Source: Flavobacteriales bacterium (lineage in GTDB: Bacteria > Bacteroidota > Bacteroidia > Flavobacteriales_F > PHOS-HE28). From it: 64,000 nucleotides of DNA. Below, piece after piece: positions 11,804-47,139 of this stretch. The stretch's first letter is position 1, and each line of letters starts with the position of its first letter. The notes beneath the pieces are model-generated. The model did not search any database. It was given only the letters and a program-made list of their open reading frames with translations, and was not told where the DNA came from. Both the position numbers and the translations under genes were made by a program. The stretch spans positions 26,729 to 90,728 of the forward strand of contig JADJOG010000047.1 in assembly GCA_016713865.1 (NCBI GenBank), read 5' to 3'.

Positions 11804-11826
11804 GGTTCGTTTCGTCTGGGTCTGGT

Positions 11827-12927: not shown

Positions 12928-13057
12928 GGTTCCGAACAGGTGCCGCAATCTAGGTGGTGACGAAGCGCGCGCCGATGCCGTTGCACAGCCAACCTGAACT
13001 TCCTGCGCTCCTACCTTGCCGCGCATCGCGGCCAGTTCAGCGGCCGCACCATAAGCA

Positions 13058-16877: not shown

Positions 16878-17361
16878 ATGCTCCGCACCGTTATCGCTCC
16901 CGCACTGCTGGCCGCCGGTCTGATGCTCATCACCGGTACGGCCCAGGCCCAATGCAAATCGTTCGCGAAGAACAAATGCGTCCCCGGCCTGCTGCCATAT
17001 AAATTCAATGAGACCTTCAACGGCGCCACCTTGGCACCAGGCGATGAGGCTGAGGTGGCTCTCACCTTCTTCAGCGGTCAAGAGTATCGCGTGATGGTGT
17101 GCGTTCACCAGATCCTGGGCGAAGTGAATTGGAAACTGGTTGATCAGAACAACAAGACCGTTTTCGAGAGCTTGGCTGATGAGCCCAAGACCCCATTTCG
17201 ATTTCAAAGCCGCGAGCACGACGCAGTTGCACGCCGTGGTCTGGGTTCCGAGCAAGTCGAAGAGCGATATGGTGCACACCGGCTGCGTGGCCATCATGGT
17301 CGGCTTCAGGAATAATCGTATCAGCCGCCAACGCGGGCCTGTAAGCCGGCGTAGCGCATGA
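16878..17361 (+). pseudogene. small secreted hypothetical protein, frameshifted at a C4 run near 17195
   Basis: Signal peptide MLRTVIAPALLAAGLMLITGTAQA. The C-terminal continuation ...FDFKAASTTQLHAVVWVPSKSKSDMVHTGCVAIMVGFRNN is in the frame of ORF 17140..17361. Confidence 0.45.
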
Positions 17362-17393: not shown

Positions 17394-17837
17394 TCAGCGC
17401 AGTTCGATCCGGCTCTTGCGCTCGAGGTCCGTGAGCGGCTGGAAGCGGAGCAGATGGAAATCGGCTGTGCCGGCCAGCATGCGGATCTCGGATGATGCCC
17501 TGCCGAACTCGCGTCCATCCTGATCCTTGGCGATGGCCATAATCGCCCCTGTGAAATCCTGCTCGGCGATCAAGTACAGCATCAGTCGGTTGTCGCGTCC
17601 TGCGCTGTCTTCCTCGACAACGGTCTTTCCGAGCGAGAGCCCTCGTGCTTTCAGGTCATCAGAAAGCGCCACATCGATGCTCCAGCTCTTCTCGACGCCG
17701 GTGGTCACGCCCTCGATCACCTCTGTAGCAGCTGATCCGGCTATCTCGCCGCCTTTGTTCAGCGCGCTGCGCGTCCCATCGGCCACGCGGCCGCAACCGA
17801 TCAAGGCGGTCGCGGCAAGGAGCAGGACCGGCCTCAT
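17394..17837 (-). CDS. hypothetical lipoprotein
   Basis: LLAATALIGC lipobox. ATGA overlap with the upstream M43 gene (17834..17837). Confidence 0.5.
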   Translation of the reverse strand: MRPVLLLAATALIGCGRVADGTRSALNKGGEIAGSAATEVIEGVTTGVEKSWSIDVALSDDLKARGLSLGKTVVEEDSAGRDNRLMLYLIAEQDFTGAIMAIAKDQDGREFGRASSEIRMLAGTADFHLLRFQPLTDLERKSRIELR

Positions 17838-19888: not shown

Positions 19889-19945
19889 TTCAGATGGGCT
19901 GTTGGCCCGGCTAATCTATGACGCGTCGGAAGAGTCGCGAGGGAA

Positions 19946-22024
19946 TCACTCAAGCATCAGGCGCGCTGTCGTACTCGATGCATTGTGGTGGAAACGAACC
20001 AGGTACGCGCCGCGCTCCAAGTGGTTCAATGCAATCGGCAGCAGCACGTCACCCGCTGGCAAGGTGCCCAAGTCGCGGTTCATCACGATGCGGCCGGTGG
20101 CATCAAGCAAATCGATGCGGGCATTGCCGGGAGCGCTCAAGAAAGCCACGATGCGGGTTTCACTCTGGGCGGGGTTCGGCAATAAGCGCAGCCCGCTCAC
20201 CGCTGTGGCTTCGTTCTCGCCAACGCTAACCGGCATGGAGCTGATGTTGATGTCGTCGAGATAAAGGTTGTTGCCGCCATTGCTCTCGAACACGAACTTG
20301 AAGCGGAAGTTGCTGATGTGACTGGTCGCGCTGATGTTGCTGACTTCCGTGTAGCCCCATTGCGATGCATCGCCCGGGACGAAAGAGCCAGTGGTTAGCG
20401 GCCCTGTAGGAAGGGTGGTTGTGCCGCGCATGATCTTGCGCAGGCTCCAGTTGGTGCCGCAATCGTTGCTGATGTATAGGCTCAGCACATCGTCGCTGGA
20501 GGCCGTGCGTCGTGCATAAGCCCAACGGAAGGAGATGGTGATGTCGTCGGCAGCGGTCATGTCGTAGGTGCTCGAGAGTAGCTCGACGCTGATTCCATTC
20601 ATCGCAGTGGAGTTGAGCACGCGTGCGCTCCGGCTGCCGCTGAAGGCCGCTGTGCTCGCGATGCTGAATCCATTCGCTCCCGCTGGCGTGGTGGTGTACC
20701 ATTCAGGGCCGTTCAGCGCCGCAACGGTCTCGAAGCCCTCGACCACAGGAGGTAGTGTTCCCGGGTCGGCCATCACGGTGATCAGCGCGTTCTGTGTGGT
20801 ACTGAGCGTGCTAGCGCCATCGCTCACGGTAAGGCTGGCGCTGTAGATGCCAGGCTGGCTGTAGGTGATCAATGGATTCTCCTCGGTGCTGGTATCGGGC
20901 GTGCCGCCGGGGAAGCTCCAGGTGCGCGATGTCACGCTGTGGAAGCTCAAGTCCGTGAAGGAGATGGGCGACCCCGCGCACACGAGCTTCTTATCTACTG
21001 CGAATTGCGCTTGGCAGAGCGTGGGTTGCTCATTTGCCCCAGTGGCCGTGAGGTTGGCCGGGGTCCACAATTGATTGCGCTGTGATGTGGAGCTGTTCAG
21101 CGCGGCGATCATCCGTGTCTTCTGCCCCTCGGTGAACATCTTGCTGCAGTAGGAGTACTCCATGTAATTCTCCACGTTGTCCAGCGATCCGCAGCTTGTT
21201 CCAGCCAAGGTGCATACGCGCCAGCCTACCGTGTTGGGCGTGTCGCTCACGCTATCGTCGCCATTGCAATTCTCCGGAAGCTCCGGTTCGTTGCTATTGC
21301 CCCATGTGTGCGCCAGGTTGATCCAGTGCCCGACCTCGTGCGTGAGCGTGCGAGAGCGAGAGGGAGACGAAGTGCCGATTGCACCCGTGTAGGTGTGCAG
21401 CACGACGATGCCATCCCATGTTGGCTGGTTGTTCACCGAGCTAGGGCGGTAGGTGTAGCCGGCAGCACCATCGGCACTGGCGGCCACCCACACATTGAGG
21501 TATTTGTTGCGTGGCCACTGGATCAGGTTCTTCATGGTCTGCGTGCCGTCGTTCGTGAGCGTGCTCACCGTACGCGTGATGCCGTTGGTGCAGTTGCCCT
21601 GCGGGTCGCGTTGGGCCAGTTTGAATTCAATGCCCACATCGGCTACCAATGGCAGGAACTCGGATGGCACATTCGGCCAGTCGATATTCAGCTTATTGAA
21701 ATCGTTGTTGAGCACGCGTACCGCATCCTCGACCTGCGCGTTGCTGATGTTCTCCGGTCCATTGTTATGGATGATGTGGAAGACGACAGGGATGGTGTAC
21801 ACCACGCGCTCGGCTCCGGAGTTGTCCATTGCCCATTGGGCAGTGAAGGCCTCCAAGCGCGCGTCCTCCTCCATCACGGCTTGCAGGTAGGCTTCGGGTT
21901 CGCCGCTGAGCTGGGCGGCTTTCGCCAAGTCGTTCGCACCGCATGGATGCACATCGCTTTGGGCGATGAGCGTGAGAGGGAGGAGTGCACCAAGAAAGAG
22001 CGCGGAAAGGACGAGGAATCGCAT
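19946..22024 (-). CDS. M43 zinc metallopeptidase with T9SS C-terminal sorting domain, paralog 2
   Basis: HEVGHWINLAHTWGN. Signal peptide MRFLVLSALFLGALLPLTLIAQ. C-terminal ...YLVRFHHNASSTTARLMLE. High identity to paralog 1 (MEYSYCSKMFTxGQKTRMIAAL). Confidence 0.8.
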   Translation of the reverse strand: MRFLVLSALFLGALLPLTLIAQSDVHPCGANDLAKAAQLSGEPEAYLQAVMEEDARLEAFTAQWAMDNSGAERVVYTIPVVFHIIHNNGPENISNAQVEDAVRVLNNDFNKLNIDWPNVPSEFLPLVADVGIEFKLAQRDPQGNCTNGITRTVSTLTNDGTQTMKNLIQWPRNKYLNVWVAASADGAAGYTYRPSSVNNQPTWDGIVVLHTYTGAIGTSSPSRSRTLTHEVGHWINLAHTWGNSNEPELPENCNGDDSVSDTPNTVGWRVCTLAGTSCGSLDNVENYMEYSYCSKMFTEGQKTRMIAALNSSTSQRNQLWTPANLTATGANEQPTLCQAQFAVDKKLVCAGSPISFTDLSFHSVTSRTWSFPGGTPDTSTEENPLITYSQPGIYSASLTVSDGASTLSTTQNALITVMADPGTLPPVVEGFETVAALNGPEWYTTTPAGANGFSIASTAAFSGSRSARVLNSTAMNGISVELLSSTYDMTAADDITISFRWAYARRTASSDDVLSLYISNDCGTNWSLRKIMRGTTTLPTGPLTTGSFVPGDASQWGYTEVSNISATSHISNFRFKFVFESNGGNNLYLDDINISSMPVSVGENEATAVSGLRLLPNPAQSETRIVAFLSAPGNARIDLLDATGRIVMNRDLGTLPAGDVLLPIALNHLERGAYLVRFHHNASSTTARLMLE

Positions 22025-22209
22025 GGTGTGCTGAGGGGCTGGTTCAGCGCCAAAACTATTCGACTGCCCGAAAGACACGGGTCATGCTCAGGTAACAAGC
22101 CACGCAGGTCTTTGGCTCCTACGTGCGCTGGGAGAAGGAGTGGCACAAGCCCCCCGCCGACAAGCTGTTCACATGGCCCGATGGAGCATGGCTCGGCCCC
22201 GATGAGCGC

Positions 22210-24257
22210 CTAGTGCACCACGAACCGTGCGCTAGCCTCTTGGGTTGCCATCCGCAGGCGCAGAACGTAGGCTCCATTGGCCAAGCCTGCCAGGGGCAGG
22301 CGCCAGCCAGAAGAGGTGAGATCCGCTGCGCGCACCAGCCCCATCGAGATTTCTCGACCAGCGGGATCGATGATCGCCCACTGCGCGCCCGCCCACTCCT
22401 GTGGCAGATCGACCCACGCCTCTGTTCCTGCAGGATTGGGGAATATGTTAATGGCATTGGGCTCCCGCGCCGCTTCATCGATGCCTACCGCCAGCGGTGA
22501 AATGTTGATGTCGTCGAGGTAGAGGTTGTTGCCGCCCATGCTCTCGAACACGAAACGAACCCGGAAGCGCGAGGTGAGCAACGATGCGCCGATGTTGGTG
22601 ATCACGGCTTCTTGCCATTGCTCAGGGCCACTGGGCACGAAGCTTCCGCCTTGCATCGGTCCGGTTACCAGGGTGGTGATCGCGCGGAGCACTTTTCGCA
22701 GCACCCAGGTCTGGCCGCAATCGCCGCTCACATAGACATACAGGGCATCATCATTCGATGGGCTACGGCGGGCGTATGCGTATCGAAAGGAGAGCGCGAC
22801 GGGTCCCGAGCCATTCAGGTTCAAGGTGGAGCTGATCAACTCATCAAAACGGCCTGATGCCTCCGTGGTGTTTATCAGGCGCACCGACCGTGAACCGGTA
22901 AAGGCCGCGGCGCTAGTTGTTTCGAAGCTGTTATCGCCATCTGGATTCTCGGCGCGCCACCAGTCATCAAGATTCTCCGCGCCCTCGAATCCCTCGCTCC
23001 ATGGCAAGGGTGCTCCCGGGTTGGAAAGCACGCGGATGTGGTCGGTTCGTATTTCCGTTATCAACGCGCTTCCGTCTCCAACGCTCAGGCTCACGGGGTA
23101 GCTGCCGGTGCTGTTGTAGGTAATGGTCGGGCTCGTGTTGAATGAGGCTGAAGGTGTGCCGCCCTCGAACGACCAGAAGCGCTGGGTTACTCCGAAGAAG
23201 CTCTCGTCGGTGAACTGCACGGTTGATCCCTCGCACACCTCGCGCCTGTCGCTGCGGAATTGCGCGCGGCAGAGCTGCTCTGGCTCGAGCACGCCGGTGA
23301 GCACGAGATTGGCCGGCTGCCACAAGTTGTTGCGCTGCGCGATGGGCGATGTGAGCGCGGCGACCATGCGGTCGCCCTGACCTTGCGTGAACATCTTGCA
23401 GCAGTACGAATACTCCATATAGTTCTGGACATTGTCCAGCGCGCTGCCGCAACTGGCGCCGCTAAGCGCGCAAGAGGTCCAGCCGCGGGTGAGCGGGGTG
23501 TCGGCTACTTCATCATCCATGAAGCAGTTGTCGTCCGTCCCTGGCTCATTGCTATCGCCCCAGCAATGCTTGAGGTTGAGCCAATGTCCCACTTCATGTG
23601 TGAGCACACGGCTACGGTAGGAGCGCCTGTACCGATGCTGCCCGTGTAGGTGTGCAGGATCACGATACCATCCGCTTGTGGCCAGCCATCGAGCCACCCG
23701 GGTAATAGGTGTAGCCCGCGGCGCCATTGGCACTGGCGGCAACCCATACGTTCATGTACCGGTCTCGCGGCCATTGGATCAGCTGCGTCATCTCCGAAAT
23801 CACCATCGTTGGTCCGTGAGCTCTTCGTGCGGGTGATCCCGTTGGTGCAATTGCCTTGCGGGTCGCGTTTGGCCAAGCGGAATTCCATGCCTGCATCGCC
23901 CACGATGTCGATGAACTCGGGCCTTACGGTGGCCCAGTCGGGGTTCTGCCGGTTGAAGTCGTCGTTCAGGATCCGGATGGCGTCGTATAGCTGCGCGTCG
24001 CTGATGTTCTCCGGCCCATCGTTGTGGACGATGTGGAAGACCACCGGGATGATGTAGCCGCTACCACCACGCTCGAAGCCGTCGAGGCGAGCTTTCAATG
24101 CGGTGCGCGCAGCTTCGGCGCGCGCTAGGGCATCCGGGTTCTCGGCTAGCTGCCGTGCCAGTTGCTCAGGATTATTGGCAAGGCAGCGGAAGCCTTCGTC
24201 TTGCGCGCTGGCATGAACGAAGGGCAGAAGCAGCAGAAGAAGCGTGATCAGGCGCAT
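22210..24257 (-). pseudogene. M43 zinc metallopeptidase with T9SS C-terminal sorting domain, paralog 3, disrupted by at least three frameshifts between about 23600 and 23830
   Basis: The N-terminal part (MRLITLLLLLLPFVHASAQ...IPVVFHIVHNDG) is in ORF 23505..24257. The middle segment QWPRDRYMNVWVAASANGAAGYTYYPG is in ORF 23660..23896. The catalytic HEVGHWLNLKHCWGD site and the C-terminal sorting domain are in ORF 22210..23742. Confidence 0.75.
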
Positions 24258-34842: not shown

Positions 34843-35733
34843 ATGAAACGAATCGCGACACTTCCGCTCATGTGTGCATTGATTCATCCGGGTTCGGCGC
34901 AAGTGGTGGGTGAGTTCCTCGAGATGAATTTCGAGTCGGGCGCCACCCTGGTCCTGGACAGTGTTTATCCAGCAGGTTGCTGGCAAGTGGGGAGACCTGC
35001 GAAAACTCTGTTCACCACCGCGCTCAGCCTTCCAAACGCGCTTGTCACGGACACACTGCTTCCTTATCCGTCTTTCACCACGTGCTATGCTGAGTTCACA
35101 CTCTTAGCTGATGAGTCCTCAAATGATTATGGTCGCTGGTTCGAGTTCGATCATTGGTTGGACCTCGCTCCGGGCAGTAGGGCCTACATAGAGGCCCGCG
35201 ACACCTGGTCTTCCGATTGGTCAAGGTTGAACGACGGCTGGTATGCGGAGGGAAGCGTGATCAATGGACCCCAGGGTTATGAATTCGCGGGCAGCACAGG
35301 CGCATGGGAGCATGTAGCCTTCGACTCGCCTTGCGGCGGTGTGATGCAAGCGACAGCCGATCGATGGTATGACCCGTTGATGCGGCTTAGGTTCGTGCTT
35401 GAAGCAGGCGATAACGGTAGCGGCCGCGATGGCTGGATGATCGATGACTTTCGTGCCACGGCTACCATTTGCGCGGGCGGCCTTACGGAACACAGGGTCA
35501 GCGGCTTGAAGATCTACCCGAACCCAGCGAATGACAGGGTGCTCATTCAGTTTCATGGCAATCCCGGTCCGTCGACAGTGCAAGTGATCCGTAGCGATGG
35601 CGCTATAGTCGCGGTGACTACCGTGCAAGGCGATCGAATCGGCTTGAGCGTTGATGAATTGCCATCAGGGCCCTATCTGATACGTTCCATCGGTAGCATG
35701 CCAAAGCAGGCCATGCTCCTCATTCAGCGTTGA
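34843..35733 (+). CDS. hypothetical secreted protein with T9SS C-terminal sorting domain
   Basis: Signal peptide MKRIATLPLMCALIHPGSAQ. C-terminal KIYPNPANDRVLIQF...GPYLIRSIGSMPKQAMLLIQR. Confidence 0.6.
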   Translation: MKRIATLPLMCALIHPGSAQVVGEFLEMNFESGATLVLDSVYPAGCWQVGRPAKTLFTTALSLPNALVTDTLLPYPSFTTCYAEFTLLADESSNDYGRWFEFDHWLDLAPGSRAYIEARDTWSSDWSRLNDGWYAEGSVINGPQGYEFAGSTGAWEHVAFDSPCGGVMQATADRWYDPLMRLRFVLEAGDNGSGRDGWMIDDFRATATICAGGLTEHRVSGLKIYPNPANDRVLIQFHGNPGPSTVQVIRSDGAIVAVTTVQGDRIGLSVDELPSGPYLIRSIGSMPKQAMLLIQR

Positions 35734-35746
35734 GGCCAAAGCCGCT

Positions 35747-38700
35747 TCACGGCAATTGCTGCGTCCTTGTATTCGTCGGAACGCTTCCGCCAACATTCAC
35801 GAGAATTGGATCGCGGTCGTTGTTCTCCCCGGTGTAGCGGAAGATGCCATCCATGTTCACGTCGGCTTGGTGATAGCCCGGCGCGCTCAAAGCCGTTGGC
35901 ACGTTGCCGCCAATGCTCAACAGGATGGGATCGCGGTCATTGTCCTCACCGGTGTAGCGCAGGATGCCATCGCGAGAAACATCACCGCTCCAGAGCAGCG
36001 CCTTGCCATCGCGCAGCCGACGGGCATCGGTCCCGTGCATGCTGAGCGCAGGGTTCGAGAAGTCGATGCTCGCTGGGGTCGTGCTCAATGCTTGCGGGGC
36101 CGCAGTCATTGCTCCCAGATGATTCCGGTGCTTCACGGCGATTCGGTAATTACCATTTCCGGCGCGGAAGCTTACAGGCGAATCTCCGTCGATGTCAACC
36201 ACATCGCCATCGCGCTGCAGCAGTGCTGAGCGAGTGGCAAGCACGGTTGACGGCGAGGTGGCATCGCGCAATTCGAGCATCACCCAATCGACAATGGCAT
36301 TATTGCCCGATTGGACGAGCACGGCAGGCGCCACGGTCTCGCCGCCGCCGAAGTACTGCTGGAAGCCAAGTCCGGTGTAGGGCTCGGTCGAAGGGATGTG
36401 GGAGCCGCTGCGCAAGGCATCGCTCATGATGTCCGTGACCTCATCATAAGGACCATCGAGCAAGAGCTTCAGGGCCACGCGCACGCCATTGCGCTCGATC
36501 ACCACATCGTCGAGGTGCAGCCAGTTGCCATAGCCATTGATATTCACGAAGCGCACGATCACTTGCTGGCCGTCGAAAGCGCTTAGGTCATCATCGTGCT
36601 GCTGCCATTGACTGCAGGCGGTTGGTGTCCAGGCTGAGGTGACATATCCTGTGGTTTGCAGGGCCGCACCCGTGGCCTGGAATGTGGTGGTCCAAGTGAG
36701 CCCGCAATCGCCGCTGACCTCCACGCGCATGCCATCGGGGTAAGCAGAGCTATAGCCGCTGTAGGCGTGCTTGTATTTGAGGCGCGTGCCAGCCGATCCA
36801 CTCAGGTCTATTCGCGGGGTAACCAAGCGATCTTCTTGGCCCGGGGCGCTTACGGAGTAGTTATCGATGCCCCAGACGCGCGCGCCTACGCAAGACTCTT
36901 GGGCGGAAACAGCACGGGTCACCCATGTGGTGCCGTTGTCGGGATTCTCGAGTAACCAGCCCGCAGGGATCGGCGGGGTGCTTTCAACATTCGTGGTATA
37001 GGTCGATGCAGCACTGGATGGAGTAGTGAGGGTGATGCTCGATGCAGCTGCGTCATTCGGGACGTACTGATCCCCCGCAAGATTCGTCCGTGCCGTCACG
37101 GTATGTGGCCCATCGCCTGTGATGGTGAGTGTTTGCGCGAAGGTGTAATCGGCAGAGGCGCCTGCAGCGAGTGTCCCGGCGTAGGCGGCCAGCACCTCGG
37201 AGCCTCCATCGAGCTGATAACGCAGCTCGAAATTCGATTGTGGCTGCTGACCGAAGTTTCCGCACGCGAACAACGACTGGGAGATTGCTTGCCGCGCAGT
37301 TGAAGAGGTTTCCGCTGGGCGATAGCACTTGAGCGATGCCCACGTTGTTGGCCACGGGCATGTCGAAGGCCTCGCTCTGATCCGAGCGGCTGGTGGAGAG
37401 CCCTTGACTGGCGCTTGCTCCCAAGCCGCGGCGCGCGAAGGCTGCCCAGATCGCGGTCTGGTTAGCACCGCCGTAAAGTGCTTGATCGGCGGCGAGTATC
37501 GCGTCACGACCATCAACGAATCCTGGATTGCAGGGTGTGAGCTTCAGGCCTTCAATCACCAGTCGCATGGCGATGTTGTTGCCGCCGGTGCCATTGTAAA
37601 TGTCCGGGTCCCAGCCGTAGATGCCGATCAGCTCCCAGGTCATCTCCCAGAGCATGGTACACCACACGAAACCGATGCCATGCGGCTGGCTCAATCCACT
37701 ATTGGTGCTTGCATAGGTGTAGTTGTTAACGCCGAAGCTGGTGCTGTAACGAGCCGGGCGGATGCCCGCACCCGTGGTAGGCTGGCCGAGCACATAGGTG
37801 CCTACGCCACGACCGGTTGAACCGGTATCACCTGCGCGTATCGTCATAACGATGCCGAAATAGTCGCTCCAGCCCTCACCCATTTGCTCAGCGTTGCCCA
37901 AGCAGCTCGTGTTCGCCGGACCGCCAACGAGGCGGTTGCTGATGCCGTGGCCGTACTCATGCGCGATGATCCCATTATCCAGGTCACTGTCGCGGTTGGG
38001 CGTGGTATAGGTCCACCGATACATCTGCATCCGTGGATTGCTGCCATCGGGTGGAGTGCCGAAATTGGCGTTGTTGGTGCCGCTGCCATCCTGCGCATCT
38101 GCATCAACGGGGTCGCTGCCGACGCCGCCGCGGCCGTAGTTGTTCTCTTGGAAGTTGCCGGCCGGGTCATTGAAGCCATACTGGTACCACACGTCGTGCA
38201 TCAAGTTGTTCCAGTAGAAGAGGTTGGTGGTGGCGGCGGGCAGGTAGGTCGAAGGCGCCTGTGCGAAATCAATCGGGAAGTCGAAGTCGAGCGTTGCGCC
38301 GCCATCTGGTCGCGTGCCACCGGTGTTGTTGGCATCGGCATCTTCTTGCGCGAAGCAGTTGTTGCCGCGCGTATCCGAGAACTCTGCACCTGCTACACCA
38401 TTGGTGTCGTGCCAGCCATAGGGCGAAGCGGTGCCGCCATCGAGCCAAGGGGCGTTGCTCAGTGTGCGCGGGCCGTGGCTCGGACTCTCCAAAGGCCAAT
38501 CGAACACGTTGTATTCGTTGGGTGCGGCGGGAGCAAGTTCCTCTTCAGGCGAATGATCGGTGCAGCCATGATGTGTGTGGTCATCCCAGTTGCATTGCGC
38601 TACCCAGTCGTTGCGGTCCAGCTCTTCACCGGTGATGGCATCGACGCGCACGTTCCACCAATGCGAGCCATCGGGCGTGTAATGGTTCACGTTCCAGGCC

Positions 38701-39212
38701 AAGCGCAAGGCATCGCCTTTGGGCTGGAACACGAGCTGGGCTATTATGGGCTCGTTTCCGAAAGCGCTGCCATCGAAGATCGCTTTGCGCCCTTCATCCT
38801 CTGCGCTCATCAGCTGCGGTGCGCTCTTATCGGGCAGGTTGCGTGCAATCACCAAGGCCACGGCGGCTTCGGCTGTAAGCACGGGTTCGGTAGCGTTCGC
38901 GCGTTTCCCGATGCCGGTGAAAGCGCCCACGTTCAACTTGAGCAATTCGCCATCTGGACGGAGATGCATAGCGATGTCGCCATTCCACACCTCGATGCCT
39001 TGCCAGCGCTGACGCAGGTACAAGTGACGGATCCCGCTTCCTTCCGAACGGTAATCGTCCTCGATCAGTAGATCCTTCAGGTCGCTTGCATGAAAGCCGT
39101 CAAGCAACAGAAGCTGCTCGGTTTTCGCTGGCAAGGGAGTTGAGCTCTGGGCAGAAACGCAGTTCGCTGAAAATACGAGGGCAATGAGGGCGAGGGTCGG
39201 CTTGTGTATCAT
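35747..39212 (-). pseudogene. M36 (fungalysin-like) zinc metalloprotease, copy 1: FTP propeptide, M36 catalytic domain, shared middle domain and a dockerin-like C-terminal module. One frameshift near 37300.
   Basis: Signal peptide MIHKPTLALIALVFSANCVSAQ. HEYGHGISNRL (HEXXH) in ORF 37053..39212. The continuation in ORF 35747..37516 includes D-x-N-x-D-G loops (DVNMDGIFRYTGENNDRDPIL). There is no classic T9SS CTD. Confidence 0.75.
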
Positions 39213-39282
39213 GGGGATGGGCGCAAAATAGAAGGAACGCCTATGCCCGTTTTTTCACGAAACCTGCAGAATGAGGATTCCT

Positions 39283-42200
39283 TCACTCGGAAACCACGAG
39301 GCGCTCCACGCCGAAGGCGCCATCGGGCCCAATGCGCAGGAAATACACGCCGGGTACTGGACGGCGCAGCGCGAGTCGCACAAGGCCCTCTGCCCCGGTA
39401 TCGACGCTCATCGGGACAATCTGCCCTAAGGCATCACGCAGTTCGATCGGCGTGCCGGGCTCCGGTAGCAGAAGTGTGAACTGGCCATTGCCCGGGTTCG
39501 GGAATGCCCGTTGGCCTTGATGGCCACGCTTCATGCTAACCATATCCGAGATCTCCTCGGATCCATCGATGTCGATCATGCGCAAGCGATAGAAGCTGGT
39601 GCCCGCTAGCGGCGCGGGATCGAGCAGTGCGTAATTCGAGAGCATCAGCGATTGGCCGCGCGCTTCCATGCGGCCAATGGCGGTCCAAGCGCTTGCATCA
39701 CGCGAGCGCTGCACCTCGAAATGGCTGCTGCCGCTCTCACTGGCCGTGCTCCATTCCAACAGCACGCCGTCAGCCACCTCGCGGCCTTTGAAAGAGAGCA
39801 GCTCCACTGGAAGTGAAGAGGATCCCGTGAACTGCACATTGTCTAGATACAAGGTGTTGCCGTAGCCATTGATGCCTACGAAGCGCACGAGCACGGTCTG
39901 CCCGTCATAGGCGCTGATGTCGAGATTGTTGGCCCTCCACTGCGCGCAAGCACCCGGGGTATACACTCCAGTGTTATCCGGTGCGGTGGCAAGCGCGGCT
40001 CCGCTCTGGTTCAGCAAGGTCACCCAGTTGCCGCCGCAGCTGCCGCTGATTTCAACGCGGAAACCATCGAAAAGCGAGGCATTGTACCTGGCATAGGCGT
40101 TGTCGAATCGGAGACGGGTGCTGCTGAGGCTCACGAGGTTCACGAGCGGTGTAATCAAGCGGTCTTCCTGTCCTATGCCGTTATAGTTGAAGTTGTCGAT
40201 GTACCAAGCGCGCGATGAGGTGCACGAAGGCCCGGGGCCGATTGCCGGAACGATTGTGCTCCAGGTGTAAGCATTGTCAGGGTTCTGAAGCGACCATCCG
40301 GCAGGCGTTGGCGAAGCGGCAGAAAGGCCCTCGCTGTATGGCGCCATCACGGTTGTGCCAGCCGTAACGGTGATTGATTGTGATTGGGCATTGTCCACGG
40401 CGTACATGTCGCCGGTGAGGTTGGTCTCCACCTCCAAAGTGTGCGTGCCCGCCGAAGGTGGAGTGAAGGGTGTGGCGAACGTGACGGTGACGGACGCACC
40501 AGAAGCCAGAGGGCCCGGTACATTCTGCGTTACCCATGCGCCGCCGTTCAAACGGTAACGAACCGGGAAATTGCTCTGTGAATTGGTTCCGAAGTTGCGC
40601 ACCACTGCACGCACGGTTACAGGAGAGGACGGGCAGAGGTAGAAGGCGGTTCCGGGCTCCGTGATGCTGGATACGCCAACATTGGTGGGTACTGGCGAGC
40701 TGTACGATTCCACCTGATCAGTACGGCTGCCCGCAGTGCCCTGGCTGGCACCGCTGCCCAAGCCGCGCCGGGCGAAAGCGGCCCAAAGCGCCGTGTTGTT
40801 GGCGCCGCCATACAGGTTCTGATCAGCGAGCAGGATGGCATCGCGGCCCTGCACGAAACCGGGATTGCATGGCGTGAGCTTCATGGCTTCAATCACTAAG
40901 CGCAATGCCCGATTGTTGCCGCCGTTGCCGTTGTAGATGTCGGGGTCGAAGCCGTGGATGCCAATCAGCTCCCAAGTCATTTCCCACAGGATGGTGCACC
41001 ACACGAAGCCCATTCCGTGCGGCACGGTGAGGGCTGTATTGTTCGTGCTTGCATAGGTGTAATTATTCACCCCGAAGTTGGTGCTGTATGGAGCGGGCCT
41101 GATGCCGCCGCCCGTTGCTGGCTGCCCCACCACGTAGGTGCCGATGCCGCGTGGCATAGGACCCGTATCACCGGTCTTCATCGTGAGCATGAGCGCTAAG
41201 TAGTCGCTCCAGCCTTCGCCCATCTGCTCAGCATTGGTCAGGCAGTTCACATTCGCTGGACCGCCTACGAGTCGATTGCTCACGCCATGACCATATTCAT
41301 GTGCGATCACGCCATTGTCCAGATCGCTCGTGCGATTGGGCGTGGTGTAGGTCCACACGTACATCTGCATGCGTGGACGTGTGCCTTCGGCGGGCGTGGC
41401 GAAGTTGGCGTTGTTGGTGCCGCTGCCATCGAGCGCATCGGCCAGCACATAATCGTTGCCGGTGCCGCCACGGCCGTAATTGTTCTGCTGGAAGTTGCCC
41501 GACGGATCATTGAATCCGTAGCCGTAGAGCACATCATGCACGGTGTTGTTCCAGTAGTAGAGATTGGTGATGAGGGCGCTTTGATAGGTGTTAGGCGCAT
41601 TGGCCAGATTGATCGGGAAGTCGAAGTCGAGCGTAGCGCCGCCATCGGGAGCGGCCGATCGTGGTCTCATTGTCGTTGGCGATATCCTCCTTCGCCCAAA
41701 CGTTGTTGCCTCGGGTTGTCGTGTACTCCGCGCCCGCAGCGCCATTCGTGTCCTGCCATCCGAAAGGCGATGCGATCCCGCCCAGAGTCCAAGGCGCATT
41801 GCGCAGGGAGCGCGCTCCGTGCGAAGGGCTCTCGACAGGCAAGCCGTACACATTGAAATCGTTCGGAGCCGCCGGCATCATCGATGCGTCCTCCGGGTGC
41901 GCGCAGTCGTGGTCGTTATGCGGGTGATCCCACGTGCAGGAACTCACCCAATCGTTGCGGTCGAGCTCCTCGCCGGTCATGGCGTCGATCCGTACGTTCC
42001 ACCAATGGCTGCCATCAGGCGTGTAATGGTTCACGTTCCAAGCAAGCCGCAAGCGGTCATCAACGGGTTGATAAACGAGCTGTGCGAAGGGCGATTCATC
42101 GCTGAAGCCTGTTGCATCGAAACGGATCAAACGCCCGCCATCCAATGATTCGATGATCGCAGGGGTCGCGACCCCTGGAAGATTCTCTGCAAGCACGCTG

Positions 42201-42556
42201 GACAAAGCGGAGGTCGCGCTGATCGCAGGTGTTGTCGCGTTCACGCGTTCGGGCAACCGATTGAACGCTCCGATGTGCGCTTCAACGACGCTGCCATCCG
42301 CACGTTGATGTATCGCGATGTCGCCATTCCACACCTCGATGCCTTGCCAACGCTGCCGGATGTAGTTGTGAGTGAGGCCAAGTGTTTCCGAATCGTAACG
42401 ATCCTTAATGATCACATCCTGCAGGTCGGCGTCAATCAGATCGGCTTTCGCCAACCGGGATTGAATTGAGCCGAGCAATGAGGCAGCATCGTCCTGCGCA
42501 TGCCCGAAGGAAACGCTGGTGACCAGAACGAGTGCGACTAAGAATCTCAGGATCAT
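39283..42556 (-). pseudogene. M36 (fungalysin-like) zinc metalloprotease, copy 2, with T9SS C-terminal sorting domain. One frameshift near 41650.
   Basis: Signal peptide MILRFLVALVLVTSVSFGHAQ (ORF 41591..42613). HEYGHGVSNRL in ORF 39283..41853. C-terminal ...VYFLRIGPDGAFGVERLVVSE. Confidence 0.75.
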
Positions 42557-42719
42557 GGCATTTGCGGGATCGAAAATAGGGGCACGCCGCACATTCAACA
42601 ATAGCCCCTGCAATCGGTTCGATTGGGTCCTTGGCCCCTCTGCGAGGCTACATTTGGACCGCCGTTAAGAACGCCGTGCTTCGCAAACGCCTCTCAACGA
42701 GGACCAAATAGACAGATTC

Positions 42720-43130
42720 ATGTACCCCCCCGAACTCACCGCCCCTATGGCCATGGACCTGGTGTCCGCTGGCTTCGAAGAACTGAAAACACCCGAACAG
42801 GTTGATAAGGCCCTGAGCCAGCCCGGCACCGTGCTCTGCGTGGTTAATAGCGTTTGCGGTTGCGCCGCAGGAGCAGCTCGCCCCGGTGCCAAGCATAGCC
42901 TGCGCGGAGCTAAACGCCCAGATAAGATGGTCACGGTTTTCGCTGGCGTGGATACTGACGCCGTGATCCGTGCGCGCCAGCATTTCCTGCCTTACCCGCC
43001 GAGCAGCCCGAGCATGGCGCTTTTCAAGGATGGCAAGCTGGTCCACTTCCTGGAGCGCCACCACATTGAGGGCCGTACGGCCGAGATGATCGCCGATAAT
43101 TTAGCGATGGCTTACGAGGAGTTCTGCTAG
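42720..43130 (+). CDS. bacilliredoxin (BrxA/BrxB, YphP/YqiW family, DUF1094)
   Basis: VVNSVCGCAAG active-site motif and SSPSMAL, collinear with Bacillus YphP. Confidence 0.8.
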   Translation: MYPPELTAPMAMDLVSAGFEELKTPEQVDKALSQPGTVLCVVNSVCGCAAGAARPGAKHSLRGAKRPDKMVTVFAGVDTDAVIRARQHFLPYPPSSPSMALFKDGKLVHFLERHHIEGRTAEMIADNLAMAYEEFC

Positions 43131-43146
43131 TCGCGAAACAATTCTT

Positions 43147-43190
43147 GCACGAGCGCCCCGGCACAATGCCGGGGCGCTCGTGTTTCGGTT
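43147..43190. terminator. bidirectional intrinsic terminator between convergent genes
   Basis: GCACGAGCGCCCCGGC-acaat-GCCGGGGCGCTCGTG followed by TTTCGGTT. Confidence 0.6.
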
Positions 43191-43215
43191 CCCGCTCACG
43201 GCAATTGTTCGGTCC

Positions 43216-46200
43216 TCACATTCGTCGGCACATTGCCGCCGATGTTCCTAGGATCGGGTCGCGGTCGTTGCTGTTGCCGGTGTACTTCACACTCCCGTCA
43301 AGGTTCACATCCTCGATCCGGTAGCCGGTGATGCTAGCTGTTGGCACGCTGCCGCCGATCGCGGTGAGGATCGGGTCGCGGTCATTGAATTCGCCCGTGT
43401 ACTTGAGCAGCGCATCGCGCAGCACATTCCCGCTCCAAAGCGTGCGAATGGACCCAACGATGCGTGTAGGCTCGGTGCCGTGCAGCGCGAGCGCAGTACT
43501 GGTGAAGTCGATTGCGGTTGAAGCGGTGGTGAGCGCGTAACCCGTGCTCGTCATGGCGCCCAAGTGGTTGCGGTGGCGCACAGCGATGCGGTATGTCCCG
43601 CCCGGAGCGAGCAGCGCAATGGGTGATACGCCATCCTCCGCCACAACATCGCCATCGCGCTGCACAAGCGCCGGGCGCGTGGCCATGATGGTGCTAGGCG
43701 TTGCATTGCTGCGAAGCTCAACCAGCACCCAATCAACGATCGCGTCGCCGCCTGTTCGTGGCAACACACCAGCTTGTATGATCTCGCCGCCGCCATCACT
43801 CGCCTGCGTGAAGCCGAGTGATGTGTATGGTTCCGCATTCGGGATTAATGATGTCGAACGCAGGTTGTCGCGCATGAGTCCAGTGTTGTCGTCATAGGCG
43901 CCATCGAGCATCAGTTTCAGCGCGAGTCGCATGCCTTGGTTCACCACCTCGATGTTGTCGAGATAAAGGCGGTCGCCGTCGCCATTCACACCGGTGAATC
44001 GGATCACCGCGCTCTGTCCGTCATATGCACTGATGTCGAGGTCGTGCAGCATCCATTGGTTGGCTGCCGTGGGCGCCCAAGGGTTCGAGCCTGTGGTCGA
44101 AGTGCCCAACGCGGCCGCTTGCGCGTAGTAAAGCTGCGTCCAGCTTTGCCCGCAATTGGTGCTGATCTCCACGCGCAGGCCATCAGGATAGCTGGCGCCA
44201 TAGGGCTTGTAGGCATGATGGAAGCGCAAACGGGTTCCTGCGCTGCCGCCGAGGGTGATAACTGGTGTTATCAGCCGGTCCTGCTGACCTGGGGCGTTGT
44301 AGTAGTAATAGTCCATGCGCCATGCGCGTGTGGCAGCGCCGGTTGGGCCAGTCACGCTCACGTTGGTCCATGTGTCGAGGCCATCGGCATTCTCCAAGCG
44401 CCAGCCCGTGGGCGTGACTGCCTGGTTCTCTGCATCGGCAAGCAGCGGTGCGTTCGCTGTGAAGTTGGCGTAGGTAATGAAGGAGTTTAGTGTCTTCGTA
44501 CTGGTTCCGTTCGCATCGGTGACGGTGAGTGTGACATCGTACACGCCCGGCGCGCTGTAGGTGACGAGCGGACTGCGATTGTTGCTGGTCGATGGCGATC
44601 CGCCGGGGAAGCTCCAGATCCACGAGTAGCCGTTACCGCTGAGCACGCTGTTATCATAGAACTGCACGCTGGGCGCGAGGCAGGTGATCGTGGTCTTGTC
44701 AGAGCAGAAGTTGGCGACAGGTTGACTGGCGGTTTCCAGCGCACTCTCCCAAACGCTGCGGTCTGTGCCGTTGCGGATCTTCTGGTCGCGGTAATTGATC
44801 AAGAGCTTCGTGCTGAAGATCTTCGCGGGAAGACCCGTGTTCCATAGCGCCCATGCAGGTGCTGCATCGCTGCGGTAGAACACGGCTCGTCGCGTGCCGA
44901 TGTAGAGCCCGCCGTTCGTTCCAAGTTGGTGCGCGATGTTGGTGGGCCACTCGTTGTTCAGGTTGGCGTCGGTGATGTTGGTCCAGTTCGCTCCGCCATT
45001 GGTGCTGCGGAAAACCACGTATCCGTTGATGTTGGGATAATCCCCGTACTGGCTGGTGCGCACGAGCCAGATGGTCTGTGGATCGGTGGCGCTGACGGCG
45101 ATGTCGTAAGGCACCCACGTGTTGCCATTGATGGTTCCGCTGCTCGGGGTGATGTTCGTCCAATTCGCACCGCCATTGGTGCTGCGCCAAACCTTCTTTT
45201 CGCCCCACCAGTCGATATAGGTGCATGCGTACAACGTGTTCGGGTCGCTGAAGCTCACTTCGATGCTGGTCACGTACTCGCCGAAATCGTACACCTGCGT
45301 GAAGCCCGCGCCATTGTCGTCTGTCCGCCAGATGGCCGTTCCATTGCCCACGAAGGCAGTGTTCACCAAGTTGGGGTGCCACACGATTTCGCTGCTGTGG
45401 CCAGTGATGTAGTCGGCGTTCGGCTGGCGGCTCCAGTTCGCGTTGCCGTTGCTCACGTTGCGATCGCCGCTCAAGGTCTTGTAGCCGTAATCGCTCAGCG
45501 CGCGGCGGTCGTATTGAGGATGCACGAAGCCGCGTAGGCCATCGCCGCCGTCGGTGCTTACCCATCCGTTGGTGTACACGTTGTTGTCCTTGAGCAAGGT
45601 GCCGTTGTGGTAGGTGCCGCCCAGCATCACGTTGCTGCCGGTCCATCCGCCAGCGCCGAAGCCCCAGAAGTCGGTGCCCGCAATGCCGAACATGCGCCGC
45701 TGGAAGTTGGCGCCGCCATCGCTGCTGTAGAAGATGCCGCCGTCGTTGGCCACCCATACCTCGTTGCCGTAGTAGCGGATGTCGTGGATGTCGGCATGCA
45801 CGTAATCCACCTTGTTGCTATGGCTCCACTTCGCCGGACACGTGAAGGTGACGCCGCCGTCGGTGCTCACCCACCGGTTCACTGCGCCCACTTGAAGTTT
45901 GTTCGCGTTGGTGGGGTCAACATCGAAGGCGAGATCGTAGTAGTACTGCCCACCATCGTCAAGCCCTTGGTCATCCCAGCCCATCAGGTTGCGGTTGCTG
46001 GCCGATGGCGCGCCGCCGGGCTGAGGGCCGCAGCATGTGAAGGACCAAGTACTTCCGCTATCGGTGCTCTTGTAGATGCCGTACAGTCCCGTGCCGCCAT
46101 TCACTTCGCCAGTGCACAGCGCGTACACGTTGTTGGGCGCTGCGGCGCTCACGGCGATCTCGGTGCGCTTTTGCTCTTCCGGGCTAACGGGCAGTGGCCA

Positions 46201-47139
46201 GCCGGTTCCAACTTGCGTGAAGCTCACACCGTTATTGGTGCTGCGCCAGAACTCGGTTCGATTGCTCACCTGCTTGATGGCGTACACCGTGTTCATGTCG
46301 CCGGGCTTGAACTCCAGTTCTTGCCAGATTCCGGGTTGCACCTGCGTGAAGGACGCGCCTGCATTCGTGCTTCGGTACAAACCCTGATTGCTGATCACGA
46401 AGAGGATCTGATTGTTGGTGGGGTGCAGCACGATATCGCGGATGGTGTGGCTCACGCTGGTGAATGGCGATCCGCCGATCACGGCCCAGTTGGCGCCGCC
46501 ATCGGTGGTCTTGTACAAGCTGCCCGCTCCGCCGAACCAGGCCGTGTTCTGCACCGTGTTATCCAGTTCAACGCTCAGCACTTCGCCCACCATCATGGCC
46601 TTGGTCACGTTCGTCCAGTTGAGGCCCTTGTCGGTGCTCATCCACACGCCAGCGTTGGCGGTGCCTGCGTAGAGCAGATTCGCGTTCACCATGCTCTGCT
46701 CAACGGTGTACACGTGCGCCGCGCCGCAGGCGTAGCTCTTGTCCACCGCACCATGATCCCAGTCGAAGGGGCCGATGCAGGTCCAGTTGGCCGTGCGATC
46801 GCCGCTTGCCGATGCCGCGAGGTATTGCCCGAGACTCTCTTCATAGTCTTCGCGTTGCGCCACGTCGCGCGGAATAATGTTGTGACCGACCTCGCGCTTC
46901 CAACGCTTGAAGTATTGCGTGTGCGCGTTCTTCACGAAGGGATGCGTGGCGTAGTAGGCATCGTAGGCCGCTTGCACCGCGCCGGCATCGGCATCTGGGG
47001 CATACATCAGCTGCGCCCATTGGGGCAGATCGGTTCCATGAGCGGGAACGAGCTGCTCGCTGCGCTGGGCATACAGGAGGCCGTGCAGAACAAGGCTAAG
47101 TGAAGGAAGAAGGAACGCATGCGTGCAGGTTTGGCGCAA
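43216..47139 (-). CDS. large secreted BNR/Asp-box repeat protein (sortilin/VPS10-like beta-propellers) with shared middle domain and dockerin-like C-terminal module
   Basis: Signal peptide. At least nine S-x-D-x-G-x-x-W/F Asp-box motifs (STDGGANW, KSTDSGSTW, ...). C-terminal 230 aa about 60% identical to the tail of M36 copy 1. Length 1307 aa, uninterrupted. Confidence 0.75.
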   Translation of the reverse strand: MRQTCTHAFLLPSLSLVLHGLLYAQRSEQLVPAHGTDLPQWAQLMYAPDADAGAVQAAYDAYYATHPFVKNAHTQYFKRWKREVGHNIIPRDVAQREDYEESLGQYLAASASGDRTANWTCIGPFDWDHGAVDKSYACGAAHVYTVEQSMVNANLLYAGTANAGVWMSTDKGLNWTNVTKAMMVGEVLSVELDNTVQNTAWFGGAGSLYKTTDGGANWAVIGGSPFTSVSHTIRDIVLHPTNNQILFVISNQGLYRSTNAGASFTQVQPGIWQELEFKPGDMNTVYAIKQVSNRTEFWRSTNNGVSFTQVGTGWPLPVSPEEQKRTEIAVSAAAPNNVYALCTGEVNGGTGLYGIYKSTDSGSTWSFTCCGPQPGGAPSASNRNLMGWDDQGLDDGGQYYYDLAFDVDPTNANKLQVGAVNRWVSTDGGVTFTCPAKWSHSNKVDYVHADIHDIRYYGNEVWVANDGGIFYSSDGGANFQRRMFGIAGTDFWGFGAGGWTGSNVMLGGTYHNGTLLKDNNVYTNGWVSTDGGDGLRGFVHPQYDRRALSDYGYKTLSGDRNVSNGNANWSRQPNADYITGHSSEIVWHPNLVNTAFVGNGTAIWRTDDNGAGFTQVYDFGEYVTSIEVSFSDPNTLYACTYIDWWGEKKVWRSTNGGANWTNITPSSGTINGNTWVPYDIAVSATDPQTIWLVRTSQYGDYPNINGYVVFRSTNGGANWTNITDANLNNEWPTNIAHQLGTNGGLYIGTRRAVFYRSDAAPAWALWNTGLPAKIFSTKLLINYRDQKIRNGTDRSVWESALETASQPVANFCSDKTTITCLAPSVQFYDNSVLSGNGYSWIWSFPGGSPSTSNNRSPLVTYSAPGVYDVTLTVTDANGTSTKTLNSFITYANFTANAPLLADAENQAVTPTGWRLENADGLDTWTNVSVTGPTGAATRAWRMDYYYYNAPGQQDRLITPVITLGGSAGTRLRFHHAYKPYGASYPDGLRVEISTNCGQSWTQLYYAQAAALGTSTTGSNPWAPTAANQWMLHDLDISAYDGQSAVIRFTGVNGDGDRLYLDNIEVVNQGMRLALKLMLDGAYDDNTGLMRDNLRSTSLIPNAEPYTSLGFTQASDGGGEIIQAGVLPRTGGDAIVDWVLVELRSNATPSTIMATRPALVQRDGDVVAEDGVSPIALLAPGGTYRIAVRHRNHLGAMTSTGYALTTASTAIDFTSTALALHGTEPTRIVGSIRTLWSGNVLRDALLKYTGEFNDRDPILTAIGGSVPTASITGYRIEDVNLDGSVKYTGNSNDRDPILGTSAAMCRRM

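What the first reader, a model, noticed from the sequence alone, without database searches (positions are those of the whole stretch)
35747..42556. Tandem M36 fungalysin-like protease paralogs, each interrupted by a single frameshift, with divergent N-terminal FTP regions
Seen in sequence: two adjacent minus-strand genes encode FTP-propeptide plus HEYGHGxSNRL M36 catalytic domains that are highly similar to each other (for example NNANFxTPxxGxxPRMQMYxWTYTTPNRxSDLDNGxIAHEYGHG). Their signal peptides and first 150 aa differ. Each is split at a different position (near 37300 and near 41650).

M36 proteases are uncommon in bacteria. A tandem pair with swapped C-terminal modules suggests recent duplication and domain shuffling.
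Basis: seen in the sequence. Interest (0 to 1): 0.5.

Follow-up and report, generated by a model that had tools for sequence, protein, structure and literature searches.

The report
Two M36 proteases split by assembly errors
Two neighbouring genes for secreted zinc proteases are real and belong to a known bacterial family, but the frameshifts that break them are almost certainly errors in this genome assembly, and the gene pair is old rather than recently duplicated.

Summary
Two adjacent minus-strand genes (A 42556..39283, B 39212..35747) encode signal peptide, FTP propeptide, M36 catalytic domain, CARDB and choice-of-anchor J. Each is broken once, A at 41652/41653 and B at 37257-37259.

The interpretation mostly fails.

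1. The frameshifts are most likely assembly errors.
- The window comes from an NCBI Flavobacteriales MAG (MBK7946634-37).
- Independent assemblies 97-99% identical in DNA (two ENA, two Logan, one JGI) each cover part of the window. Both M36 genes are intact in the two ENA assemblies that cover them (1091 and 1154 aa).
- Gene A differs from them only by a missing TT over 3,276 nt.
- Wherever these assemblies overlap the window, it carries about 17 further 1-2 nt indels found nowhere else. They include four frame breaks in polA and three indels within 175 bp of an M43 peptidase gene.

2. The duplication is old.
- A and B are 58% identical.
- Each has orthologs at 75-84% identity, arranged in the same tandem order in other metagenomic contigs.

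3. Bacterial M36 enzymes are not rare. NCBIfam curates a T9SS-dependent M36 family, and Flavobacterium psychrophilum secretes two M36 proteases with consecutive locus tags.

One side observation has some interest. B's C-terminal 248 aa match no Pfam or NCBIfam model, yet the module ends thousands of different proteins.

The parts
39283..42556 (-). M36-A gene: 1091-aa T9SS-type M36 metallopeptidase once the missing TT is restored
   Evidence: ORFs. Repair and translation. Identical to the intact ENA protein P0157. Pfam FTP, M36, CARDB. NF038113 757 bits, choice-of-anchor J, TIGR04183.
41652..41653 (-). Frame break in A: the window lacks two bases (TT) between these positions
   Evidence: Both ENA contigs L004 and L006 read ATCGGCTTCGCTCCC here. 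The remaining 3,274 nt of the gene are identical to them.
42494..42556 (-). Predicted Sec signal peptide of A (MILRFLVALVLVTSVSFGHAQ)
   Evidence: Read from the sequence. Cleavage is inferred.
40738..41860 (-). M36 catalytic domain of A, with HEYGHG at 41284..41301 and MGEGWSD at 41203..41223
   Evidence: PF02128 covers residues 234-603. Motif coordinates.
39286..39510 (-). T9SS type A C-terminal sorting domain of A
   Evidence: TIGR04183 scores 26.3 bits on the whole protein and 29.5 bits on the fragment, cut-off 23. Pfam Por_Secre_tail is weak.
35747..39212 (-). M36-B gene: 1154-aa M36 metallopeptidase once one A is removed
   Evidence: ORFs. Repair. Six amino-acid differences from the intact ENA protein P0155. 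More than 100 full-length orthologs. NF038113 775 bits, choice-of-anchor J.
37257..37259 (-). Frame break in B: AAA where independent assemblies have AA (one extra base)
   Evidence: Flanking peptides VVVRVR (37260..37277) and NFGQQPQSNF (37229..37258) lie in different frames.
39147..39212 (-). Predicted Sec signal peptide of B (MIHKPTLALIALVFSANCVSAQ)
   Evidence: Read from the sequence. Cleavage is inferred.
37401..38516 (-). M36 catalytic domain of B, with HEYGHG at 37944..37961 and MGEGWSD at 37863..37883
   Evidence: PF02128 covers residues 233-601. Aligns to Aspergillus fumigatus Mep 4K90_A at E 2.8e-92 with both motifs conserved. Coordinates.
35750..36493 (-). C-terminal 248-aa module of B: a confident beta-sandwich followed by two repeats (L/F)RYTGExNDRDPIL; it matches no family model
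   Evidence: No Pfam hit at E<=1 and no NCBIfam hit at E<=10. AF2 model has pLDDT about 90 for residues 1-170 and about 30 for 171-248. Found at the C-terminus of thousands of proteins.
43216..47139 (-). Neighbouring 1307-aa Sortilin/PKD-type gene whose C-terminal half (choice-of-anchor J plus the same 248-aa module) is homologous to that of B; its last codons are also altered by a window-only indel at 43247
   Evidence: tblastn gives 53-56% identity to B orthologs over about 400-420 aa. Indel at 43247 against L004 and L006.

Best explanation
The region holds two intact, functional, anciently duplicated genes for secreted zinc metalloendopeptidases of the fungalysin family (MEROPS M36), in an uncultured Flavobacteriales bacterium.

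Domain order. Each protein has a Sec signal peptide, an FTP/PepSY propeptide, an M36 catalytic domain (HEYGHG plus ExxxD), a CARDB domain and a choice-of-anchor J beta-sandwich domain. A then ends in a T9SS type A sorting domain. B ends in a 248-aa module that matches no family model.

Inferred mechanism. The propeptide would act as intramolecular chaperone and inhibitor, as in fungalysin. A would cross the outer membrane through the type IX secretion system. How B is exported or anchored is not established. The likely role of both is extracellular protein degradation.

The frameshifts. The single frameshift in each gene is a consensus error of this assembly, probably a long-read assembly, and not a mutation. 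The duplication predates the divergence of several related lineages.

Shown here: the domains, motifs, orthology, synteny and the window-only nature of the indels. Inferred: secretion route, propeptide role, enzymatic activity and the sequencing technology.
For: 1. Both genes are intact in independent assemblies.
- The same 90% clusters that hold the window's four fragments (MBK7946634-37) also hold full-length ENA proteins of 1154 and 1091 aa.
- These are encoded on ERZ28614577 scaffold_660 and ERZ15185901 NODE_763, which are 99.2-99.3% identical in DNA to the window.
- Gene A differs from them by the missing TT and nothing else over 3,276 nt. Gene B differs by one extra A plus 24 substitutions, 17 of them synonymous.

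2. The window carries many other private 1-2 nt indels against two to four independent assemblies.
- Sites: 15184, 15387-90, 15515, 17191, 17307, 22149, 23619, 23697, 23794, 30664, 43186 and 43247.
- None of these 1-2 nt indels, and no single indel in the divergent polA patch described next, is a multiple of three.
- polA needs four frame changes to read in the window. Three correspond to private indels. The fourth lies in a divergent patch at 13938..14103 with a net length difference of 11 nt. polA is one 952-aa ORF in three other assemblies.
- An M43 peptidase has three indels within 175 bp and is a 682-aa ORF elsewhere.

3. Other 'tig'-named MAGs of the same series show M36 genes split at different positions (L019, L048, L050). 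Among the roughly 35 short-read loci, only L013 and the low-coverage L052 do.

4. The duplication is old.
- A and B are 58% identical.
- A's orthologs reach 84% and B's 81%.
- Tandem A-B with the same flanking genes is intact in L001-L003, and the pair is present in L013-L015, L019 and L052, where one copy is frame-split in L013 and L019 and both in L052.
- In an NJ tree A and B fall in separate clades.

5. Family assignment.
- PF02128 458 and 481 bits.
- 4K90 fungalysin at E 2.8e-92 with HEYGHG and EGWSD conserved.
- NF038113 'T9SS-dependent M36' 757 and 775 bits, and TIGR04183 in A.
- T9SS-dependent secretion of two M36 proteases, both carrying TIGR04183 domains, has been shown by exoproteomics in Flavobacterium psychrophilum (PMC5682007).
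Against: - The comparison assemblies come from related but not identical populations: 128 substitutions over 18.6 kb, and 24 in gene B. A real strain-specific frameshift cannot be formally excluded without the reads.
- The sequencing technology of the source MAG was not verified. It is inferred from the MBK accessions and from 'tig'-named, megabase-scale contigs of sister MAGs.
- At 47075 the window, not ENA contig L004, agrees with the more distant ortholog L001. Not every discrepancy is therefore the window's error.
- Both proteins score below the NF038113 equivalog cut-off of 885 bits.
- B has no recognisable T9SS signal.
- The NJ tree has no bootstrap support values.
Confidence: 0.9

Rival explanations
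1. Both M36 genes are real pseudogenes in this strain. A genuine 2-nt deletion and a genuine 1-nt insertion inactivated them very recently.
For: The frames are disrupted in the deposited sequence, and NCBI annotated four fragments. The reference assemblies are not the same strain, being 99.2-99.3% identical.
Against: - Gene A is otherwise 100% identical to the intact copies, and B shows 17 synonymous against 7 non-synonymous differences, so there is no sign of decay.
- The same contig has equivalent private indels in polA (four frame breaks), an M43 peptidase (three in 175 bp) and other genes. All are 1-2 nt and none is seen in up to four independent assemblies.
- Simultaneous recent inactivation of polA and several secreted enzymes, with no other decay, is implausible.
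Confidence: 0.07
2. The breaks are programmed ribosomal frameshift sites used to regulate or diversify the proteases. Both need a +1-equivalent shift.
For: Both breaks can be bridged by a +1 shift.
Against: - No orthologous or near-identical sequence has a shift at these sites. Both ENA assemblies and L001-L003 read straight through.
- Splits in other long-read MAGs lie at other positions.
- No slippery or stimulatory motif is evident at either site.
Confidence: 0.01
3. The pair arose by a recent tandem duplication followed by C-terminal module swapping in this genome.
For: The genes are adjacent, on the same strand and have the same domain order up to residue about 910. Their C-termini are unrelated.
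Against: - The pair is 58% identical, against 75-84% for orthologs in other genomes.
- The identical A-B arrangement and both C-terminal architectures are conserved in at least eight other contigs and MAGs.
Confidence: 0.02

Closest known systems
NCBIfam NF038113, T9SS-dependent M36 family metallopeptidase (Bacteroidota)
   Same: Both proteins hit it as the best NCBIfam model (757 and 775 bits, E about 1e-227 to 1e-233). They share the FTP propeptide and M36 core. A has the T9SS type A sorting domain.
   Different: Both score below the equivalog cut-off of 885 bits. They carry extra CARDB and choice-of-anchor J domains. B lacks any detectable T9SS sorting domain and ends in an unmodelled 248-aa module.
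Fungalysin, Aspergillus fumigatus Mep (PDB 4K90; MEROPS M36)
   Same: The catalytic domain aligns over about 370 residues at E 2.8e-92, with HEYxHG and the EGWSD segment conserved. The propeptide also matches chain B of 4K90 at E 2e-6.
   Different: The proteins here are bacterial and much longer (1091 and 1154 aa), with three to four extra C-terminal domains and a different secretion route.
Flavobacterium psychrophilum M36 proteases THC0290_0299 and THC0290_0300
   Same: Two M36 fungalysin-family precursors with consecutive locus tags, both carrying TIGR04183 domains. Their extracellular abundance drops in gldD and gldG (T9SS/gliding) mutants (PMC5682007).
   Different: Both F. psychrophilum proteins carry a type A CTD, whereas here only A does. 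Sequence relatedness to A and B was not measured.

Membership tests
Peptidase family M36 (Pfam PF02128, fungalysin) | Full-length match to the M36 catalytic domain profile above the gathering score | tested here: met
   A scores 458.4 bits (profile 2-368 of 368) and B 481.4 bits (1-368 of 368). The cut-off is 23.3.
Peptidase family M36 (Pfam PF02128, fungalysin) | Zinc-binding HExxH motif and the downstream Glu-containing segment of gluzincins | tested here: met
   HEYGHG and MGEGWSD are present in both genes and align with the same motifs of 4K90_A. That these residues bind zinc rests on established knowledge of the family.
Peptidase family M36 (Pfam PF02128, fungalysin) | N-terminal FTP propeptide | tested here: met
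   PF07504 scores 37.3 and 37.5 bits, cut-off 21. The 4K90 prodomain chain B matches at E 2e-6.
Peptidase family M36 (Pfam PF02128, fungalysin) | Metalloendopeptidase activity | not testable with these tools
   This needs expression and an enzyme assay.
NCBIfam NF038113 T9SS-dependent M36 metallopeptidase (equivalog) | Whole-protein score at or above the curated cut-off of 885 bits | tested here: not met
   A scores 757.2 bits and B 775.2 bits. They are close relatives but are not called equivalogs.
NCBIfam NF038113 T9SS-dependent M36 metallopeptidase (equivalog) | C-terminal T9SS type A sorting domain (TIGR04183) | tested here: inconclusive
   A meets it, at 26.3 and 29.5 bits against a cut-off of 23. 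B does not: no NCBIfam hit at E<=10 and no Pfam hit at E<=1 on its last 248 aa.
Pseudogene (genuine frame disruption) | The disruption is reproducible in independent sequence of the same population | tested here: not met
   Both genes are single ORFs in ENA ERZ28614577 and ERZ15185901 at 99.2-99.3% DNA identity.
Programmed ribosomal frameshift | The shift site is conserved in orthologs | tested here: not met
   The ENA contigs and L001-L003 read through in one frame at both sites. Splits in other MAGs lie at other positions.
Recent tandem duplication | The paralogs are closer to each other than to homologs in other genomes | tested here: not met
   A and B are 58% identical, against 84% for A's and 81% for B's best orthologs. 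They fall in separate NJ clades, and the tandem is conserved elsewhere.

The most novel reading that the evidence does not exclude
The 248-aa C-terminal module of M36-B may be an unrecognised C-terminal sorting or surface-anchoring domain of uncultured Flavobacteriales. It could be a third kind of T9SS-related signal, or a dockerin-like anchor used in place of the type A or type B CTD.

What the module is:
- A beta-sandwich followed by two Ca-binding-like repeats, DxNxDG...YTGxxNDRDPIL.
- It is shared with the neighbouring Sortilin/PKD protein.

What supports the reading:
- It is found in 10,503 cluster representatives (2,349 at E<=1e-30).
- In about 144 of the best 150 hits it ends exactly at the last residue, on proteins 255-3228 aa long with different N-terminal parts.
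- No Pfam or NCBIfam model covers it.
- The proteins examined that carry it show no T9SS CTD.

Probability: 0.25. Interest if true: 0.55.

Novelty: already known. Interest (0 to 1): 0.1.

Why it matters
As submitted, the finding matters little. The genes belong to a curated, widespread family of Bacteroidota secreted proteases, and the frameshifts are technical.

Its practical value is as a warning. This contig carries roughly one small indel per 2-3 kb. Any 'pseudogene', 'split gene' or 'frameshift' seen elsewhere in this window should be treated as an assembly error until the reads say otherwise.

The only lead with research value is the abundant, unmodelled C-terminal module on M36-B and its neighbour. 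If it is a sorting or anchoring signal, it would extend the known repertoire of cargo signals in Bacteroidota.

Tried and rejected
- Exact look-up of the window's own truncated ORF P0087 found no contig. The source MAG is not in that index.
- Exact look-up of the 297-aa ORF 15976..16869 failed. The 147-aa ORF 17394..17837 and the 379-aa Cys/Met enzyme worked.
- My first repair of gene A, removing a T to give 1090 aa, was wrong in detail. Comparison with the ENA contigs shows a 2-nt deficit, giving 1091 aa.
- Promoter and terminator scans of 35500..43300 gave nothing above the shuffled expectation.
- The genome-contig scan did not return the window's own species. The best hit was 79-80% identical.
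- I could not tie MBK7946634-37 to a BioProject or a sequencing platform. PRJNA629478 (long-read activated-sludge MAGs; PMC9765116) is a lead from memory, supported only by the isolate naming of sister MAGs.
- Region 8.9-12.8 kb (FG-GAP/ASPIC gene) is too divergent from the reference contigs, which are 91-94% identical overall across the spans that include it, for a reliable indel count.
Full report
OBSERVATION

The minus strand between 35747 and 42613 holds four ORFs that pair up into two genes.
- Gene A runs 42556..39283 and changes frame at 41652/41653.
- Gene B runs 39212..35747 and changes frame at 37257-37259.
- After repair the products are 1091 aa (A) and 1154 aa (B) with no internal stop.

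Both proteins carry the same N-terminal and central domains:
- a signal peptide;
- an FTP propeptide (PF07504, 37 bits);
- a full-length Peptidase_M36 domain (PF02128, 458 and 481 bits);
- a CARDB domain;
- a choice-of-anchor J domain (NF038128).

The catalytic domain of B aligns with Aspergillus fumigatus fungalysin (4K90_A) at E 2.8e-92, with HEYGHG and EGWSD conserved.

A and B are 58% identical over 909 residues. By region the figures are propeptide 51%, catalytic domain 74%, CARDB 43% and choice-of-anchor J 45%. From about residue 910 the two are unrelated.

One detail needs correcting: the N-terminal regions are homologous and only somewhat less conserved, rather than different.

SOURCE OF THE WINDOW

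The 90%-identity clusters that contain the window's fragments name them MBK7946634.1 to MBK7946637.1, 'MAG: Flavobacteriales bacterium', on a 195,034-bp contig. The 693-aa entry even includes the out-of-frame tail seen in the window.

The same clusters contain full-length ENA proteins of 1154 aa (P0155) and 1091 aa (P0157).

ARE THE FRAMESHIFTS REAL?

The full-length proteins are encoded on two ENA metagenome contigs: ERZ28614577 scaffold_660 (48,350 bp) and ERZ15185901 NODE_763 (32,339 bp, coverage 2.1). These are 99.2-99.3% identical in DNA to window 29.3-49.8 kb.
- Against both contigs, gene A differs by a missing TT and by nothing else over 3,276 nt.
- Gene B differs by one extra A plus 24 substitutions, 17 of them synonymous.

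The same kind of private 1-2 nt indel recurs all over the window.
- polA (13055..15923) needs four frame changes to be read. Three correspond to private indels at 15184, 15387-90 and 15515. The fourth lies in a divergent linker patch at 13938..14103 with a net 11-nt length difference.
- polA is one 952-aa ORF in ENA ERZ28614577, ENA ERZ15185901 and Logan ERR1356722. The JGI 3300010356 contig covers its 3' part.
- An M43 peptidase (22210..24257) has three indels within 175 bp, at 23794, 23697 and 23619. It is a 682-aa ORF in four other assemblies.
- Further private indels lie at 17191, 17307, 22149 (a run of seven G read as six), 30664, 43186 and 43247.

Taken together this is about 17 indels in about 37 kb. 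None of the 1-2 nt indels, and no single indel in the polA patch, is a multiple of three. Nearly all of those in coding sequence break an ORF only in the window.

That pattern, and above all a multiply broken polA in an otherwise well-conserved genome, is what residual consensus errors look like. It does not resemble natural pseudogenisation.

Sister MAGs have MBK protein accessions and 'tig'-named contigs up to megabases long, with isolate names of the type AalE_18-Q3-R2-46. They show M36 genes split at yet other positions (L019, L048, L050). Of about 35 loci from short-read assemblies, only L013 and the coverage-2.6 contig L052 do.
- I infer a long-read assembly with incomplete polishing, but I could not verify the platform.
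- Homopolymer-type indels in Nanopore MAGs are documented (PMC9262707, abstract seen).
- One caution: at 47075 the window, not ENA contig L004, agrees with the more distant ortholog L001. The reference contigs are therefore not error-free.

AGE OF THE DUPLICATION

A has its own orthologs: about 1090 aa, with a T9SS tail, 65-84% identical. B has its own too: about 1150 aa, 55-81% identical.

Three JGI contigs from different samples carry this gene order: Sortilin/PKD gene, disulfide isomerase, A, B, then (after an optional extra gene) deaminase, copper monooxygenase and RecJ. Both M36 genes are intact there, as in the window's layout.

The A-B pair is also seen in GTDB MAGs L013, L014, L015, L019 and L052, although one copy is frame-split in L013 and L019 and both in L052.

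An NJ tree of the first 895 or so aligned columns puts A and B in separate, well-populated clades (no bootstrap). Many genomes have only a B-type gene.

The duplication, and the two C-terminal architectures, are therefore old.

A kernel of the 'domain shuffling' idea survives. B's C-terminal half is 53-56% identical to the C-terminal half of the neighbouring Sortilin/PKD protein, which is closer than it is to A's.

WHAT THE GENES ARE AND HOW THEY PROBABLY WORK

They are secreted gluzincin endopeptidases.
- Shown here: signal peptides, propeptide, catalytic motifs and accessory beta-sandwich domains. A also has a T9SS type A sorting domain (TIGR04183, 26-29 bits against a cut-off of 23).
- Inferred from the families: Sec export, propeptide-assisted folding and autoprocessing, export of A through the type IX system, and extracellular proteolysis.
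- The best NCBIfam model for both is NF038113, 'T9SS-dependent M36 family metallopeptidase', at 757 and 775 bits. This is below the 885-bit equivalog cut-off.
- In Flavobacterium psychrophilum, two M36 proteases with consecutive locus tags (THC0290_0299 and _0300) and type A CTDs are less abundant outside the cell in gldD and gldG mutants (PMC5682007).
- Bacterial M36 enzymes are not rare. Each protein search hit the 8000-candidate scoring limit with nearly all candidates significant. NCBIfam also curates rhombosortase- and myxosortase-dependent M36 families.

SIDE OBSERVATION

B has no detectable T9SS signal. Its last 248 aa have no Pfam hit at E<=1 and no NCBIfam hit at E<=10.

An AlphaFold model built from 39 sequences gives a confident beta-sandwich for residues 1-170 (pLDDT about 90). 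The last 78 residues, which hold two repeats (L/F)RYTGExNDRDPIL, are low-confidence.

Structural matches are weak:
- Foldseek's best hits are X-module-dockerin chains (4wi0_B at E 0.06).

A full HMMER scan of 1.84 billion cluster representatives tells more.
- It finds the module in 10,503 proteins, 2,349 of them at E<=1e-30.
- In about 144 of the best 150 it ends at the very last residue, on proteins 255 to 3228 aa long.
- Sources name these proteins 'hypothetical', 'hemagglutinin' or 'choice-of-anchor J', and no Pfam domain lies on the module.

This is how a C-terminal sorting or anchoring domain behaves. I record it as a lead, not a finding.

VERDICT

The genes are real, ordinary members of a known family. 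The frameshifts are almost certainly assembly errors (confidence about 0.9). The duplication is ancient. Interest is low. The main practical lesson is that frame breaks anywhere in this window should not be read as biology.

Noticed in passing
window 13055..15923 (+): DNA polymerase I is readable only through four frame changes. Three match private indels at 15184, 15387-90 and 15515. The fourth lies in a divergent patch at 13938..14103. polA is one 952-aa ORF in three independent near-identical assemblies, which is strong evidence that the contig carries consensus indel errors.
   Followed up: yes
window 22210..24257 (-): An M43 (pappalysin-like) peptidase is split by three window-only 1-nt indels within 175 bp (23794, 23697, 23619). 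It is a 682-aa ORF in four other assemblies.
   Followed up: yes
window 17834..24257 (-): This is a second protease paralog array: three consecutive M43 peptidase genes of about 680-710 aa. All three have PKD; Por_Secre_tail is recorded only for the two intact copies (17834..19888 and 19946..22078). All three loci also show tblastn similarity to the C-terminal (choice-of-anchor J) region of the M36 orthologs. The organism seems to keep several tandem families of T9SS-secreted metalloproteases.
   Followed up: partly
window 35750..36493 (-) and about 43216..43950 (-): A conserved 248-aa C-terminal module (beta-sandwich plus two YTGxxNDRDPIL repeats) has no Pfam or NCBIfam model. It is present in more than 10,000 cluster representatives and lies almost always at the extreme C-terminus of proteins of very different length. 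It may be an unrecognised sorting or anchoring domain.
   Followed up: partly
window 43247 and 47075 (gene 43216..47139, -): The 1307-aa Sortilin/PKD gene has a window-only indel that changes its last roughly 10 codons (43247). At a second discrepancy near its start (47075), the window agrees with a distant ortholog and ENA contig L004 does not, so the true N-terminus is unresolved.
   Followed up: partly
window 16878..17315 (+): A 145-aa ORF carries two window-only indels (17191, an extra G giving GGGG; 17307, a missing T). Between them they garble its C-terminal 40 residues.
   Followed up: partly
window 8914..12842: The FG-GAP/ASPIC-type surface protein region appears much more divergent from the otherwise 97-99% identical reference contigs, whose alignments extended across it drop to 91-94% overall. 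It appears as three overlapping ORFs in the window and as ORFs of 366 and 683 aa elsewhere. This could be a strain-variable surface gene, more errors, or both.
   Followed up: no
window 34843..35733 (+): A 296-aa protein with a T9SS type A sorting domain lies directly downstream of M36-B, on the opposite strand. It is present in the near-identical ENA contigs. L001-L003 carry different genes at that position.
   Followed up: no
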